Part shown: piece after piece, positions 41,061-50,498 of the stretch
Layout: each line of letters begins with the position of its first letter
How positions within the stretch are numbered: the stretch's first letter is position 1
Source: a virus
Lineage: Duplodnaviria; Heunggongvirae; Uroviricota; Caudoviricetes
DNA: 61,798 nucleotides
IMG/VR virus record: IMGVR_UViG_3300033233_000007
Direction: 5' to 3' (one strand)
The notes under the pieces: model-generated
The model's input: the letters and a program-made list of their open reading frames with translations, nothing else
The model's database searches: none
Told to the model about the DNA's origin: nothing
Program-made: the position numbers and the translations under genes

Positions 41061-41270
41061 ATGAGCGTCCAAAAGCGCGACTGGAAAAACTTGCCCACGC
41101 CGTCGTTGGCGCGCGTCGGCGCCATCCGCCGGCACGGCCACCAGTGGAGCCGCTGGTTCGCCGACGACGGCGCGTGGTCGCGGTACTGTACGACGCCGTC
41201 ATGCTTCAAGGGCGAAACGCGCCAAACGGTCTCGAAAGCGGTGCTGTGCAGGATGAAAAATCCGTTGTAA
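41061..41270 (+). CDS. Small basic hypothetical protein
   Basis: ORF; stop abuts array B. Confidence 0.5.
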   Translation: MSVQKRDWKNLPTPSLARVGAIRRHGHQWSRWFADDGAWSRYCTTPSCFKGETRQTVSKAVLCRMKNPL

Positions 41271-41385
41271 AAAGCCGACGAAGCGGAGAAAACCGTTACC
41301 AACGAGCGAGCCGCGGTCCGCCAGAAAACCACACGTACAGAGCGAGCCGACCCGCCGCAGAAAACCGAACGTCCCCAGCGCATCT
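41269..41385 (+). ncRNA. TIGR-like guide array B (3 units, + strand)
   Basis: AGCGAGCCG / AGAAAACCG 9-nt repeats alternating with 9-nt spacers, 36-nt period. Confidence 0.85.
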
Positions 41386-41422
41386 ATTTGCACGCGGCCG
41401 AGGCATGAGCTAAAATGCCGCC

Positions 41423-41827
41423 ATGGCCGCCCTCGACGGCGTTCAGGATTACCTGAAGGTCTTCTGCGACGTCCGCCGCGTCGTCGCCGCAAAGTTCCCC
41501 GAGCTTGAGAAGGTCCGCATGGCCATCTGCCCCGAGATCGCGCGACGCCGAAAAGCCCATCGCGACCCCCTCGAGCGAAAGCGCAGCTTCGGACATACGG
41601 GCCACGTCGACGCCACGGTCTGCGTGCACCCCAAGATTTTCAAGCTCGACCTCCCGTTCATGATCGGCCTGACGTTCCACGAGTTCGGGCACCTCATTGC
41701 CGTGCCACGGGGCCTGACGGGCCAGTCCGATGCCGACGGCGTGATCGGCCAGTATTTCGACGTCCCCATCTTCTACGACGGCCGTCTCGACCTCGAGTGG
41801 ACGCCCGCGGAGTACCTTTATGGATGA
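41423..41827 (+). CDS. HExxH zincin-like protein
   Basis: TFHEFGHL. Confidence 0.6.
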   Translation: MAALDGVQDYLKVFCDVRRVVAAKFPELEKVRMAICPEIARRRKAHRDPLERKRSFGHTGHVDATVCVHPKIFKLDLPFMIGLTFHEFGHLIAVPRGLTGQSDADGVIGQYFDVPIFYDGRLDLEWTPAEYLYG

Positions 41828-42137
41828 TGTCCTCAAGAACTCCGCCAACGTCATCCTGCGTAGCTTGGCGCACAAGGCCGTAGACGTCCTCGGTGACTGG
41901 TTCAAGGACCGCAAGCTCGGTCGCGTGGGCGCCGAGCCCATCGAAATCCCACGGAGCTACCTGCCGGCGCTGCAGAAGAAGGCCGAGAACATGGTTGAAG
42001 GTGACGAACCAGCCAAGTACATCGTCGTCGTGGAGGTCGCGACACGCAAAGTCGTTGGCTTCTGGCGCGTGCCCGCGGGCTCCGACATCGTGCCTAAGAA
42101 GGGGTACATCTACATCCCGATTTTGTTTCAGGAATGA
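41820..42137 (+). CDS. Hypothetical protein
   Basis: Last + strand ORF. Confidence 0.6.
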   Translation: MDDVLKNSANVILRSLAHKAVDVLGDWFKDRKLGRVGAEPIEIPRSYLPALQKKAENMVEGDEPAKYIVVVEVATRKVVGFWRVPAGSDIVPKKGYIYIPILFQE

Positions 42138-42153
42138 CGGGGCTGTTCGTAGT

Positions 42154-42536
42154 CGGTTTTCTCCGCTTCTTCGGCTCACTTGACGCAGACGGCTTCCTAT
42201 GTAAGATCGGCTCGCTTCAGTGCTACGGGCTTCTAATGTCCGGCGGCTCGCTATCTGTAGCCGGTTTTCTTCGTGCAGACGGCTCGCTACGTGCTACGGG
42301 CTTCTCCGTTTTGCGGCTCGCTAGATCACTCCGGTTTTCTCATCTCCCACGGCTCGCTTTGGTTCCACGGTTTTCTAGCCAGCACCGGCTCGCCATGCTC
42401 ATACGGGTTTCTTCTCGACAGCGACTCGCTACGTGCTACGGGTTTCTGCGATTTGCGGCTCGCTAGATTCTTACGGGTTTCTCTCTTCCTACGGCTCGCT
42501 TCGTACGGACGGTTTCCTAAGTTCAATCGGCTACGC
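42154..42536 (-). ncRNA. TIGR-like guide array A (22 repeats, about 11 units)
   Basis: cggttttct/cggctcgct alternate with 9-nt (four 8-nt) spacers; lengths sum to 383 nt. Confidence 0.92.
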
Positions 42537-42872
42537 CGCACCCTCCTCTCCCCTCACGACGAACTGTGCGTTGACCTGCGACGGATGGACCCCATGCGCC
42601 TGCGCGTAGATGTTGAGAAGCGCGTGTTGGACGATTTCGTTGTACTCCGCGGCCGGCAGGTCGGGCTTGACGACGTCGTGGAGGTACGTACCCAGAACTC
42701 CGACCAGAGACCCCATGACGGCGAGGGACGAGTCGGGCGATTCGACGCCGAAGATGGCCCTGATGTGCGCGCGGCGCCCGAACTCCATTTCGCTGATCGC
42801 GCGGCGAAAGCTTTCAAGGTCCTTGGCCACGAGAATCATCTGGCCCTGCGTGGGTCTTGGGCGGTCGGTCAT
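42531..42872 (-). CDS. Hypothetical protein
   Basis: AAGGAG RBS; stop overlaps first repeat of array A. Confidence 0.65.
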   Translation of the reverse strand: MTDRPRPTQGQMILVAKDLESFRRAISEMEFGRRAHIRAIFGVESPDSSLAVMGSLVGVLGTYLHDVVKPDLPAAEYNEIVQHALLNIYAQAHGVHPSQVNAQFVVRGEEGAA

Positions 42873-42898
42873 GACGAGACGCTCCTTAAACTTGTGAC

Positions 42899-43701
42899 CT
42901 AAAGATAGTCCCGCAGGCCAATGTAGTCCGAAAAGTCTTCTCGCCACTGTCCGAGGCTGTCCATTTTAGCCTTCAGCGACCTGGCGGCATTTTGCGCGAC
43001 GGCAAAAGAGTCCTTCGACGCCGACGTCGCCGCCCGCTTGGCCTTCCCACCGATATGAGACGCCTTGTTCAGTACGGACAGGTTTCGTTCGTGCGCTTCG
43101 CGGAGGCGTGTAAAGAGGAAAACAAGTTCCGACACTTCAGGTTCTCGGGGATTTTTGCCGTACCACGTTCTGAACGCATCGGCGACGGTTCTTCGAAGGT
43201 CTCGAGCGGCCGAGACGTACACCCTGGCGGCGATATCGACGACTTTCGGATAACCCGATTTCAAAGCAGACAGAAAGATGTCTCGCGCGACGTCCATCCT
43301 GTCGATCCACAGGACGATGTCCTGCGCCGTAGACGAATACTTTTTCAAATATCCATTCCCAAAATGTCGGACGCATCGGCCATGGAACTCGGCAGCGATG
43401 CCTGGCTCAAGAGCCTGCGCATGCGCAGGACGAGATTCGCTATGTTCAGCTTGTGCATAATCTGGAGCGTGAAGATCGCTTCGTCGCCCGTAACTTTCGT
43501 GAGGTCCACAGGCGCGTCGGGTGGAAGCTTCCTGTACATGCGGATGGCCGCGGACACGTCCTTTTCGACCATGCTCTCGATAATCAGCGCGGCTTCGGGT
43601 TCCGAAACCTGCACGAAGTCCAGGGTCACGCCCTGTTCCGGCAGACCCTGACGAACGCTCACTCTTCGGCCTACGGCGACTTTGATGCCTACGGGGATCA
43701 T
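42899..43701 (-). pseudogene. Helical hypothetical protein apparently split by a 1-nt frameshift near 43420
   Basis: Adding one G in CTGCGCATG joins MIPVGIK.. to ..ALEPGIAAEFHG; could be two genes or an assembly error. Confidence 0.45.
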
Positions 43702-49012: not shown

Positions 49013-49183
49013 AAGAGCGCTAACAGTACGCGGTTTTCTTGATTGATACGGCTCGCTTTCTTCTGACGGTTTTCTAAGCCGCTTCGGCTCGCTTCTGGGT
49101 CACGGTTTCCTAGAAAGGCACGGCTCGCTGTCGTCATTTGGATTTTTCGGTGGCTACGGCTCGCTTGATGCAGTCGGCATCCT
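49013..49183 (-). ncRNA. TIGR-like guide array D (about 5 units)
   Basis: Same repeats, 36-nt period. Confidence 0.9.
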
Positions 49184-49460
49184 ATGGCTTGACGCCTTTC
49201 TCCCTTTTCACGGCCCACTCCCTGGCCTCGATCATGCCCCAATCGCCTTCATAGACATAGTCATAGATGCTGTGTCCGCGAGGGCCGAACACGGTCTGCT
49301 GCTCACGGGTAACGCGCTTGAGGCAGGGACCGCAGACGGCGCTCTGCAACATGACGTCCCACCCTTCGGCGCTCTGCCACATGAGGTCCCACCCTTCGGC
49401 GCGGAAGCCGCAGATGCACTCCAGGCAAAAGAAGCATCGACCGTGACTATCGCAGTACAT
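49182..49460 (-). CDS. Cys-rich hypothetical protein between arrays E and D
   Basis: MYCDSHGRCFFC; duplicated EGWD.M.QSA. Confidence 0.6.
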   Translation of the reverse strand: MYCDSHGRCFFCLECICGFRAEGWDLMWQSAEGWDVMLQSAVCGPCLKRVTREQQTVFGPRGHSIYDYVYEGDWGMIEAREWAVKREKGVKP

Positions 49461-49469
49461 GTCGTCTCC

Positions 49470-49585
49470 AGAAACGCTGTGCGCCAACGGTTTTCTCGAT
49501 ACAGACGGCTCGCTGCATTGCATCGGTCTTCTCCAATCGTCCGGTTCGCAAAACTGTCACGGGCTTTTTACCTCCGCGACTCGCT
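49470..49585 (-). ncRNA. TIGR-like guide array E (3 units)
   Basis: Same repeats, some degenerate. Confidence 0.8.
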
Positions 49586-49751
49586 TATTCTTGGTGCCAG
49601 AACGCTGACGACTTCGTTGCTCGCCGCAAATTTCGAACGCGCGACGAAGGATGGCCTCGATCGTCCATGGCGTGGACGCGCCGACGCGGATGTGATCCAT
49701 GGCGAAGGTCGTCAAGCGGCGGACGTGCTTCTCGATCGTGGCTTCTCTCAT
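49557..49751 (-). CDS. Hypothetical protein; tail overlaps array E
   Basis: AGGGG RBS, coupled. Confidence 0.5.
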   Translation of the reverse strand: MREATIEKHVRRLTTFAMDHIRVGASTPWTIEAILRRAFEICGEQRSRQRSGTKNKRVAEVKSP

Positions 49752-50299
49752 GGCTGCCCCTTGATGTACTCCACGCTCGGAGACGCGTCCTCGCGCTTCT
49801 CACACAAGCGACAAACCTTCAATGACCCGACGTCCAGCCAGTCATGTACATGACCCTGAAACTTGGCCTTCGCCACGTCCTGCAAGCTCACGGGATGCGG
49901 TATGGGGGATGCGGCGCAGTTGCATACCGACCCCGTCGTCACCCGACCGCGAAGCGACTCTCGCACGGCCTTTACGATCTTGCGCTTCTTCCGCCAGTCG
50001 CTGAAGCGTCGGCCGATTTCCGACAGACCGTAGCCGGCGCTGAACGGCAACTTCAGGAAGCTCTTGATGACCGTGTAGGCGCTCACGCAGGCCACGACCA
50101 GCGGGAGCATGACCGGCCAGAACGCGGGGACGATCCACCGAAAAGCGTCGTCGGCTTCTTCAAGGAAAACGCCGTGTGACTTGCCGGTTCGACGTCGCTG
50201 GTCGATGACCTTCATGCGCTCGTGCGCTACGATCCCGGCGACGAAGGCGTATGAGGCCGCCGCGCCTATACACGCCAGAACGATCTTGAACGTGTGCAT
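49748..50299 (-). CDS. Membrane protein
   Basis: Two TM segments; GGAGAGG RBS. Confidence 0.6.
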   Translation of the reverse strand: MHTFKIVLACIGAAASYAFVAGIVAHERMKVIDQRRRTGKSHGVFLEEADDAFRWIVPAFWPVMLPLVVACVSAYTVIKSFLKLPFSAGYGLSEIGRRFSDWRKKRKIVKAVRESLRGRVTTGSVCNCAASPIPHPVSLQDVAKAKFQGHVHDWLDVGSLKVCRLCEKREDASPSVEYIKGQP

Positions 50300-50330
50300 A
50301 ACCTCTCCTGAAAAAAGCGCCTCTATACCG

Positions 50331-50369
50331 CTATAGTAGCCATGACCCATGCGTTCGTGTCTCGAAATC
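50331..50369 (-). promoter_or_regulatory. Conserved viral promoter-like motif, copy 2
   Basis: Plus strand ctatagtag..tgcgttcg..gaaatc. Confidence 0.6.
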
Positions 50370-50381
50370 TGAATATTTTCA

Positions 50382-50498
50382 AAGAGCGCTTACGACTGAC
50401 GGTTTTCTATGGGCACGCGGCTCGCTATTGACGAACGGGTTTCTCACGAGGTACGGCTCGCTCTTGGTCATCGGTTTTCTGAGGGCGCACGGCTTCGT
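50382..50498 (-). ncRNA. TIGR-like guide array F (3 units)
   Basis: Same repeats; partly inside the 3' end of the SLOG ORF. Confidence 0.88.

What the first reader, a model, noticed from the sequence alone, without database searches (positions are those of the whole stretch)
41269..50498. Six dispersed guide arrays (about 31 units) served by a single Tas-like gene and woven into operons
Seen: the same two repeats recur at 41269-41385, 42154-42536, 46986-47210, 49013-49183, 49470-49585 and 50382-50498. Terminal repeats overlap stop codons (42531, 47205, 49182) or a start codon (46995) or run inside ORF tails (SLOG, 49557). Inference: guides are cut out of ordinary polycistronic mRNAs, like intronic snoRNAs. 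Tas-dependent processing would then also segment these mRNAs and could tune neighbouring gene expression. Array seeding into new intergenic sites implies some array-mobilising mechanism.
Basis: partly seen in the sequence, partly recalled or inferred. Interest (0 to 1): 0.85.

Follow-up and report, generated by a model that had tools for sequence, protein, structure and literature searches.

The report
Scattered TIGR guide arrays, one TasA
A large uncultured sediment phage carries a genuine TIGR-Tas RNA-guided DNA-binding system, first described in 2025, whose 34 two-part guides sit in eight small arrays wedged between unrelated genes, not in one block beside the single nuclease-free Tas gene.

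Summary
Window 40995-50498 has eight dual-repeat TIGR arrays, not six. They total 34 units, and all 34 guide pairs are unique. On the RNA strand the edge repeat is AGCGAGCCG, the loop repeat is AGAAAACCG and spacers are 9 nt. The one Tas gene (47205-48221, minus strand) is a nuclease-free TasA with a zinc-ribbon insert. Its top sequence and fold matches are solved TasR and TasH structures.

All eight arrays point the same way as their flanking genes. Most begin at or inside the upstream ORF's stop codon. Several end a few bases before the next gene's ribosome-binding site or start codon. Co-transcription with mRNAs is therefore the best reading. However, the region holds at least three transcription units, not one operon, and no RNA data exist.

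Tas-dependent cutting of these mRNAs is a reasonable inference from published processing data but is untested. The sequence gives no positive evidence for an array-mobilising machinery; it shows tandem duplication with divergence and duplicated promoter modules.

No guide matches the window itself. Satellite arrays also occur in other large phages (my survey), and this scan has noted scattered TIGR guides before on other DNA. The papers I read do not describe this layout.

Verdict: a new variant of a known kind.

The parts
40995..41067 (+). Array A0: 2 units. The half-edge AAGCCA directly follows the TAG stop of ORF 40524-40994. The last spacer holds the ATG of a doubtful 69-aa ORF.
41269..41385 (+). 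Array A: 3 units, 98% identical to the consensus in the constant parts. It is followed by a sigma-70-like site (41387-41416) and the ATG at 41423.
42136..42536 (-). Array B: 11 units. The first half-edge overlaps the TAG stop of ORF 42531-42872. It contains a 4-unit (142-nt) tandem duplication. It ends at the convergence point with the plus-strand genes, next to a hairpin at 42101-42118.
42531..42872 (-). 113-aa ORF of unknown family whose stop codon lies in the first half-edge of array B.
46786..46965 (-). 59-aa CxxC...CxxC zinc-ribbon ORF. Its GAGGAG ribosome-binding site starts 7 nt after the last repeat of array C.
46986..47210 (-). Array C: 6 units. The first half-edge overlaps the tas TAG stop (reads TAGCCG). 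The last two units are degenerate.
47205..48221 (-). tas: 338-aa TasA. It has an N-terminal coiled coil plus a Nop domain and no HNH or RuvC domain. A zinc-ribbon insert lies at about residues 158-182. H298 and H310 sit at the positions of the SpTasH Y289/H296 processing dyad.
48225..48292 (-). Promoter/5'-UTR-like element P2, ending in AGGAGAGG before the tas ATG. It is 75% identical to P1.
48303..48812 (-). Peptide deformylase gene (169 aa), lying between unit G and P2.
48814..48858 (-). Array G: one complete unit. Its 3' half-edge ends 6 nt before the def ATG.
49013..49201 (-). Array D: 5 units. The first is degenerate and overlaps the last codons and the stop of ORF 49182-49460. Two hairpins lie in the 154-nt non-coding stretch that follows.
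49182..49460 (-). 92-aa Cys-rich ORF with a 30-nt tandem repeat. Its GGAG ribosome-binding site and ATG start 5-14 nt after array E.
49470..49585 (-). Array E: 3 units, the first two degenerate. The 64-aa ORF 49557-49751 terminates inside the first unit.
50302..50369 (-). Promoter/5'-UTR-like element P1, before the 183-aa membrane-protein ORF 49748-50299.
50382..50498 (-). Array F: 3 units, 98% identical to the consensus. The SLOG ORF (50425-50832/50877) reads through two units and stops at a TAG inside the array.

Best explanation
This is a dual-repeat TIGR-TasA system of a large sediment phage. One TasA protein, probably a dimer as in solved relatives, is served by 34 different 36-nt tigRNAs of the form AGCCG-spacerA-AGAAAACCG-spacerB-AGCG. 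These are encoded in eight mini-arrays spread over 9.5 kb.

The arrays have no room for promoters of their own at most sites. They are transcribed as parts of the flanking mRNAs, either between cistrons or as 3'-UTR-like tails. The guides are then released by the Tas-dependent cleavage within edge repeats that is known for this family. That cleavage would necessarily cut those mRNAs at or just before the upstream stop codons.

TasA lacks a nuclease domain. The loaded complexes most likely bind DNA and block transcription at targets outside this window, in the host, in rival elements or elsewhere in the phage genome.

The scattered layout most likely arose from arrays flanking tas, through tandem and segmental duplication, spacer divergence and insertion of accessory genes, not through a dedicated mobilising machine.

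Shown here: the identity of the repeats and of Tas, the layout, the junctions and the duplication. Inferred: co-transcription, processing, the repressor role and the origin.
For: Repeat architecture:
- Two alternating 9-nt repeats with 9-nt spacers and a 36-nt period.
- Both repeats start with AG and end with CCG. The loop is A-rich and the edge has an extra C-G pair, as described for TIGR repeats (PMC12045711).

Tas identity:
- phmmer hits TasR 9mty at 1.6e-19 and TasH at 6.6e-7, aligned from residue 75 onward.
- The model has pLDDT 94.6.
- Foldseek's top matches are TasR, TasH, then IS621, then Nop56/58.
- There is no second tas in the window.

Layout and function of the arrays:
- All eight arrays are co-oriented with their flanking genes. 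Junctions overlap stop codons or abut ribosome-binding sites and start codons. The gene map agrees with independent gene calls on an identical contig.
- The constant parts are 92% conserved while all 34 guide pairs are unique. This argues for selection rather than recent copying.

Literature:
- Tas-dependent processing of arrays co-transcribed with tas, and repression by TasA, are published.

Relatives and origin:
- Relatives with the same edge repeat have one long array fused to the tas stop codon.
- Satellite arrays recur in L003, L026, L032 and L082.
- Array B contains a 4-unit tandem duplication, and P1 and P2 are copies of one module.
Against: - No RNA data exist for this phage, so transcription, processing and mRNA cleavage are unobserved.
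- At the processing dyad the Tyr of SpTasH is replaced by His298. The closest relatives carry F, W, Y or H there, so autonomous cleavage is uncertain.
- Published minimal arrays needed full edge repeats for processing. Cleavage at the truncated first half-edge, where the stop codons sit, is therefore not assured.
- Promoter-like elements and hairpins within the region show that some arrays could be expressed from nearby signals and not from long polycistrons.
- No target was found in the window above chance: 1 hit with up to 2 mismatches against a control mean of 2.8.
- No close relative is available, so the order of events (array seeding versus gene insertion) cannot be resolved.
Confidence: 0.65

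Rival explanations
1. Each mini-array is its own small transcription unit, driven by a promoter in the end of the upstream gene or in the array flank. The tight packing is only phage genome economy, and neighbouring mRNAs are not cut.
For: Promoter-like elements do occur inside the gene chain: P1 and P2 and the site at 41387-41416. Xu et al. state that sequence alone cannot tell co-transcription from internal promoters. An earlier scan note on another phage reports guides behind their own promoters.
Against: No sigma-70-like site lies upstream of any array on the RNA strand. Arrays C, B, A0, E and F start within or at the upstream ORF. E, G and C end 6-20 nt before the next start codon, so read-through into or out of the arrays is hard to avoid. 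In published constructs the array is expressed by read-through from tas (legend of Fig. 2F).
Confidence: 0.18
2. Only the tas-adjacent array C, perhaps with B, is functional. The other arrays are decaying fragments of a once larger array broken up by gene insertions.
For: Units D1, E1, E2, C6 and both A0 units are degenerate, with 2-5 mismatches in 18 constant positions. Close relatives have one long array directly after tas.
Against: Arrays A and F are 98% identical to the consensus, and G and most of D are intact, although none shares a guide pair with another array. Neutral decay would erode repeats as fast as spacers. Every array keeps the proper half-edge boundaries needed for a complete first and last guide.
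Confidence: 0.1
3. Arrays are actively seeded at new sites, for instance by reverse transcription and insertion of processed guide multimers of 36, 72 or 108 nt, or by site-specific recombination at the edge repeat.
For: Mini-arrays of 1, 2, 3, 3 and 3 units begin at AGCCG and end at AGCG. These are the ends I infer for processed RNA from the truncated terminal repeats. Processing intermediates of 72 and 108 nt are reported. Two arrays lie on the opposite strand, which splitting of a single array cannot explain. A retrotransposon-like spread is discussed for C/D box RNAs.
Against: The same truncated boundaries are a general property of ordinary TIGR arrays, so they do not discriminate. No target-site duplications or poly-A-like tails were seen at the junctions I read. 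No reverse transcriptase turned up among the roughly 40 ORFs screened, which is not the whole window. Guide pairs are not shared between arrays.
Confidence: 0.07

Closest known systems
Dual-repeat TIGR-TasA systems, such as FpTIGR of Flavonifractor plautii (Faure et al. 2025, PMC12045711; Xu et al. 2026, bioRxiv 10.64898/2026.09.09.750476)
   Same: Two alternating short repeats with shared box D/box C ends, 9-nt dual spacers and a 36-nt unit. Terminal edge repeats are truncated. A single nuclease-free Nop-domain protein is present, in a phage. The tas stop is fused to the first half-edge, as in at least 14 of 27 related loci.
   Different: The guides are split into eight mini-arrays of 1-11 units over 9.5 kb, on both strands, and are separated by about 20 unrelated genes. 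The papers describe arrays upstream of, downstream of, flanking or inside tas. This Tas has a zinc-ribbon insert, and a His replaces the Tyr of the processing dyad.
Stem-loop TasA loci with sub-arrays and intragenic guides (Peromyscus gut contig, BlTasA)
   Same: Guides occupy several positions around one tas gene, and some overlap coding sequence. The authors raise a link between guide maturation and translation.
   Different: [quoted passage not shown] Here the arrays are dual-repeat and lie among unrelated genes.
[quoted passage not shown] 2018, PMC6009581)
   Same: Small dual-guide RNAs bound by Nop-domain proteins lie in the sense orientation across the 3' or 5' ends of protein genes and must be excised from mRNAs. 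Guides degrade where coding constraints win.
   Different: Those guide RNA methylation with fibrillarin and L7Ae and form k-turns. They occur as single genes, not arrays, and are cellular rather than viral.
Orphan mini-CRISPR arrays carried by viruses (recalled from memory, not checked here)
   Same: Short guide arrays in viral genomes, located away from or without effector genes.
   Different: CRISPR repeats are 25-36 nt with one spacer per unit and depend on Cas proteins. None of that is present here.

Membership tests
TIGR-Tas, dual-repeat type | Two distinct alternating 8-12-nt repeats separated by spacers of about 9 nt, with a unit of about 36 nt | tested here: met
   Edge AGCGAGCCG, loop AGAAAACCG, spacers 9 nt (a few 8 nt), 34 units.
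TIGR-Tas, dual-repeat type | Edge and loop repeats share the same starting (box D) and ending (box C) motifs; the loop centre is A-rich; the edge has an extra Watson-Crick pair | tested here: met
   Both repeats read AG....CCG, with loop centre AAAA and edge centre CGAG (C3-G6 can pair). This was read from the sequence and compared with the description.
TIGR-Tas, dual-repeat type | [quoted passage not shown] | tested here: met
   The 5' half-edge (A)AGCCG/A is present in A0, A, B, C, F and G. The 3' half-edge AGCG is present in A0, A, D, E, F and G.
TIGR-Tas, dual-repeat type | A rho-independent terminator follows the array | tested here: inconclusive
   Only weak hairpins follow B (42101-42118) and D. 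None follows C, E, G or A0, which run straight into the next gene.
TIGR-Tas, dual-repeat type | An associated Tas protein with a coiled coil plus a Nop domain | tested here: met
   phmmer hits TasR 9mty at 1.6e-19 and TasH at 6.6e-7. The model has pLDDT 94.6, and Foldseek's top matches are TasR and TasH, then IS621 and Nop56/58.
TasA subtype | No N-terminal HNH or RuvC nuclease domain | tested here: met
   The alignment to TasR starts at TasR residue 132 and query residue 75. The N-terminus is all long helices. There is no Pfam nuclease hit.
TIGR-Tas, dual-repeat type | A Y/H processing dyad on the C-terminal loop of the Nop domain (SpTasH Y289/H296) | tested here: inconclusive
   The His is conserved (H310). 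The Tyr position holds H298 here and F, W, Y or H in the closest clade.
TIGR-Tas, dual-repeat type | [quoted passage not shown] | not testable with these tools
   No RNA data were available for this sequence.
TIGR-Tas, dual-repeat type | Tandem-spacer DNA targets: spacer A pairs with one strand and spacer B with the other, side by side | tested here: inconclusive
   No match in the window above chance. Both orders, gaps of -1 to 7 and up to 3 mismatches were compared with 20 spacer shuffles. The host and the rest of the phage genome were not searchable.
CRISPR array | One repeat of 25-36 nt, single spacers of similar length, and cas genes | tested here: not met
   The repeats are 9 nt and of two kinds. 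No cas gene was seen among the annotated neighbours.

The most novel reading that the evidence does not exclude
Guide production and gene control are one act. Tas-dependent cleavage at embedded arrays cuts the phage's polycistronic mRNAs at or before the stop codons of the upstream genes. The tas stop codon lies at the inferred cleavage point, and the SLOG ORF and the 64-aa ORF have their only stop codons inside arrays. Rising Tas would then create non-stop messages and so feed back on its own synthesis and on that of its neighbours. Fusion of the tas stop codon to the first half-edge in at least 14 of 27 related loci would then be a conserved autoregulatory device.
Probability: 0.2. Interest if true: 0.8.

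Novelty: new variant of a known kind. Interest (0 to 1): 0.55.

Why it matters
TIGR-Tas was described only in 2025, and its biology is open: natural targets, how arrays arise and grow, and how guides are expressed.

This locus shows that dual-repeat guides need not sit in one array beside tas. They can be built into ordinary phage transcription units. That makes two questions directly testable with one cloned 10-kb fragment: whether guides are excised from mRNAs, and whether that excision regulates the host mRNA.

The 4-unit tandem duplication inside array B, with conserved repeats and diverged spacers, is concrete evidence for growth by duplication and divergence. No spacer-acquisition machinery is known for this family.

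For annotation, it shows that tools which look only near tas, or only for long arrays, will miss one- to three-unit satellites.

Tried and rejected
- Own genome: no whole genome is held for the window.
- Close relatives: none in the phage collection by megablast, and no look-alike in the scan index. Array gain or loss at these sites could not be compared.
- RNA runs: no RNA holder is listed. The only run holding the stretch is the probable source DNA sample.
- Self-targeting in the window: nothing above the shuffled-spacer control.
- Rest of the 125.8-kb contig:
  - Two look-ups failed because the start codons I guessed did not match the recorded gene calls.
  - The others returned only a second, 81-kb assembly that is 100% identical over 21 kb and ends 1.1 kb past the window.
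  - The record cannot be searched by handle.
- PHROGs and Pfam on 20 further ORFs gave almost nothing.
- Homology between the 3' flank of array F and a stretch 35 nt after array D (20 of 27 bases) is too short to rely on. MAFFT did not reproduce it.
- Apparent satellite arrays in L017, L035 and L037 from my k-mer survey were spurious on inspection.
- Similarity between spacers of different arrays is only mildly above shuffles: 63 pairs with 6 of 9 matches against 40.7 +/- 7.1. It does not show recent copying between arrays.
- The proteins flanking the arrays are not related to one another.

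
Full report
**Observation.** The region holds a very regular repeat system. The pattern of one repeat, nine free bases and the other repeat occurs 24 times in the window against 0.18 expected. All copies lie between 41010 and 50480.

Read on the strand that matches the flanking genes, the two repeats are AGCGAGCCG and AGAAAACCG. They alternate with 9-nt variable stretches (8 nt in four places), giving a 36-nt unit.

A scan for the whole unit (AGCCG, 9 nt, loop repeat, 9 nt, AGCG, up to 3 mismatches in the 18 fixed positions) finds 31 distinct units and none in five shuffled windows. 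Three further degenerate units at array ends bring the total to 34.

Two were missed:
- A two-unit array at 40995-41067 on the plus strand.
- A single complete unit at 48814-48858, ending 6 nt before the peptide deformylase start codon.

**What it is.** This is the dual-repeat form of the TIGR-Tas system described by Faure et al. 2025 (PMC12045711). [quoted passage not shown] The paper further states that:
- Both repeats start with the same box D motif and end with the same box C motif.
- The loop centre is A-rich.
- The edge carries one extra base pair.

Here both repeats read AG....CCG. The loop centre is AAAA, and the edge centre CGAG offers the extra C-G pair. The truncated terminal repeats keep AGCCG at the 5' end and AGCG at the 3' end. 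The mature guide is therefore predicted to be AGCCG-spacerA-AGAAAACCG-spacerB-AGCG, 36 nt. This fixes the transcribed strand as minus for arrays B to F and plus for A0 and A.

**The protein.** ORF 47205-48221 (minus strand, 338 aa) has no Pfam hit and matches a PHROG labelled 'transposase'.

- Against PDB sequences it hits the TasR chain of 9mty (1.6e-19) and TasH (6.6e-7). The alignment begins at residue 75 here and residue 132 of TasR, that is, after TasR's nuclease domain.
- An AlphaFold model built on 34 homologues has mean pLDDT 94.6. Its N-terminus consists of long helices.
- Foldseek ranks TasR first, then TasH, then IS621 recombinase, then Nop56/58.

The protein is therefore a TasA: a coiled coil plus a Nop domain with no nuclease. 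It carries a CxxC...CxxC zinc-ribbon insert at about residues 158-182, shared with its closest homologues.

SpTasH cleaves its precursor with Y289 and H296 (PMC13421893). Here the His is conserved (H310). The Tyr position is H298, and it is F, W, Y or H in the nearest clade. Autonomous processing is plausible but not assured. tblastn finds no second tas in the window.

**Anatomy.** A codon-usage score trained on confident genes gave the gene map below. It agrees with independent gene calls on a second assembly that is 100% identical over 21 kb.

Minus-strand chain, from high to low coordinates:
- NADAR
- a nucleotidyltransferase-like ORF
- SLOG
- array F
- element P1
- a 183-aa membrane ORF
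- a 64-aa ORF
- array E
- a 92-aa Cys-rich ORF
- array D
- 154 nt of non-coding sequence
- unit G
- def
- element P2
- tas
- array C
- a 59-aa zinc-ribbon ORF
- eleven more small ORFs
- a 113-aa ORF
- array B

Plus-strand chain:
- ORF 40524-40994
- array A0
- a doubtful 69-aa ORF
- array A
- two further ORFs, which converge on the end of array B

All eight arrays are co-oriented with their neighbours. The junctions are tight:

| Array | Junction |
|---|---|
| C | The tas stop is the TAG in AAG-TAG-CCG, the first half-edge of C. The array ends 7 nt before a GAGGAG ribosome-binding site. |
| B | The 113-aa ORF ends in the same way, GCG-TAG-CCG. |
| A0 | ORF 40524-40994 ends with a TAG one base before the half-edge. 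|
| F | The SLOG ORF reads through two units of F before it meets a stop. |
| E | The 64-aa ORF stops inside the first unit of E. The array ends 5 nt before a GGAG ribosome-binding site. |
| D | The 92-aa ORF stops inside the degenerate first unit of D. |
| G | The unit ends 6 nt before the def ATG. |

**Transcription signals.** The region is not one operon.
- A 68-nt element occurs twice at 75% identity, before tas and before the membrane ORF. Each copy ends in AGGAGAGG and an ATG. A weaker third copy lies at 58930.
- A sigma-70-like site at 41387-41416 sits 7 nt before the ATG at 41423, just after array A.
- Hairpins follow arrays D and B.
- No sigma-70-like site lies upstream of any array on its RNA strand.

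The simplest reading is at least three leftward and two rightward transcription units. Arrays F, D, B and A lie at or near their 3' ends, and E, G, C and A0 lie between cistrons. No RNA data are available.

**Are the satellites alive?** The fixed positions are 92% identical to the consensus over all 34 units, and 98% in arrays A and F. All 34 guide pairs are different. Spacer similarity between arrays is only slightly above shuffles.

Arrays that share no guides yet keep near-perfect repeats are best explained by selection on the repeats. Degenerate units are concentrated at array ends that overlap coding sequence or ribosome-binding sites (D1, E1, C6). The two units of F inside the SLOG tail, however, are intact.

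**Relatives.** The closest Tas homologues are only 36-46% identical. Those with readable context (L001, L005) and the viral contigs that share the very same repeat pair (L007 to L010) have one long array starting at the tas stop codon.

Across 27 related loci, the tas stop codon is fused to the first half-edge in at least 14, reading TAG-CCA, TAA-GCCA or TGA-GCCA. That junction is therefore typical of the clade. What is unusual here is that unrelated ORFs have the same kind of junction.

Satellite arrays are not unique to this phage. Of 80 IMG/VR Tas loci, inspection confirmed:
- L026: a four-unit satellite 2 kb from the main array, beginning TAGCCA.
- L032, a 320-kb phage: an 18-unit second array 5.7 kb away, with at least six genes between.
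- L082, a 188-kb phage: many clusters over 12.7 kb.

In addition, L003, fetched as the contig of a close Tas homologue, has a four-unit satellite 5.7 kb upstream of tas. Earlier notes of this scan report scattered TIGR guides in other large soil phages. I did not test those.

**Origin.** Units B2-B5 and B6-B9 are a 142-nt tandem duplication.
- The two blocks share, at the same position, a 34-nt unit whose two spacers are 8 nt long.
- One spacer is identical between the blocks, and the others are partly similar.
- The repeats are almost unchanged.

This is direct evidence that arrays here grow by segmental duplication followed by spacer divergence. P1 and P2 show that promoter modules have been copied too.

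Arrays flanking tas on both sides are common in relatives (L015, L020, L046, L068). D/G and C may therefore descend from such a pair, with def inserted between them. The two plus-strand arrays need an additional event.

Every boundary falls at AGCG|AGCCG. This would also fit seeding from processed RNA, but it is a general property of TIGR arrays and so does not discriminate. I see no positive evidence for a dedicated mobilising mechanism.

**Function.** Xu et al. 2026 show that TasA and nuclease-dead TasR act as RNA-guided transcriptional repressors. I searched all guide pairs against both strands of the window, in both orders, with gaps of -1 to 7 and up to 3 mismatches. The result was one hit at 2 mismatches and 37 at 3. 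Spacer shuffles gave means of 2.8 and 33.7.

The targets are therefore not in this 62 kb. The other half of the phage genome and the host could not be searched.

**Comparison with the literature.** The papers held here describe arrays upstream of, downstream of, on both sides of or inside tas, and one stem-loop locus with three sub-arrays. None mentions arrays interleaved with unrelated genes or fused to their stop codons.

**Verdict.**
- The identity as TIGR-TasA is secure.
- The operon-embedded, scattered layout is a new variant of a known kind that recurs in large phages.
- The proposed coupling between guide excision and mRNA fate is a good, testable hypothesis without data.
- A special mobilising mechanism is not supported.

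Noticed in passing
window 42208-42491: Array B contains a 142-nt (4-unit) tandem duplication. The repeats are nearly identical, the spacers are only about half identical, and both copies share an unusual unit with two 8-nt spacers. This points to array growth by duplication and divergence.
   Followed up: yes
window 48225-48292, 50302-50369 and 58930-48 (minus strand): A repeated promoter/5'-UTR-like element (core CTACTATAGC..ATAGAGGC, then AGGAGAGG and an ATG) lies before tas and before a membrane-protein ORF. A weaker third copy lies further right. It is possibly a phage-specific promoter.
   Followed up: partly
L001, L005, L012, L015, L028, L029, L035, L036, L040, L043, L059, L061, L067, L086 (tas 3' ends): In at least 14 of 27 related loci the tas stop codon is fused to the first half-edge repeat of the array (TAG-CCA, TAA-GCCA, TGA-GCCA). 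The first guide therefore starts in or directly after the stop codon.
   Followed up: partly
window 47205-48221, residues about 158-182: Tas carries a CxxC...CxxC zinc-ribbon insert inside the Nop domain. It is shared by its closest homologues (P0002-P0013) and absent from P0005, P0014 and more distant ones. Its role is unknown.
   Followed up: partly
window 50425-52099 (minus strand): A NADAR domain protein, a nucleotidyltransferase-like ORF (weak aminoglycoside-adenylyltransferase hit) and a YspA-type SLOG protein form a tight trio just upstream of array F. This may be a nucleotide-signal or ADP-ribose handling module.
   Followed up: no
window 48303-48812 (minus strand): A phage-encoded peptide deformylase (Pfam 2.5e-43) lies between a single guide unit and the tas promoter-like element.
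   Followed up: no
window 49337-49402: A 30-nt tandem repeat (2.2 copies, 94% identical) lies inside the 92-aa Cys-rich ORF and encodes a repeated AEGWD(L/V)M motif.
   Followed up: no
window 41423-41827 (plus strand): A 134-aa ORF with an HEFGH (HExxH) metallopeptidase-like motif. Its ATG lies 7 nt after a TAAAAT box, so the mRNA may be leaderless.
   Followed up: no
L082 7060-14440 (IMGVR_UViG_3300032156_000001, 188 kb): Another GC-rich large phage has TIGR units (edge core GATCGAGACA) in many clusters over more than 7 kb on both sides of tas. It possibly has more than 100 guides.
   Followed up: partly
L092 1433-2065 (about 0.9-1.5 kb left of the right end of the 81-kb ENA assembly; window about 60878-61510): The independent gene call gives a 210-aa product with a Phage_integrase Pfam hit near the right end of the window. 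The second assembly (81,259 bp) extends about 18 kb to the left of the window start, so the phage genome is likely larger than 140 kb.
   Followed up: no
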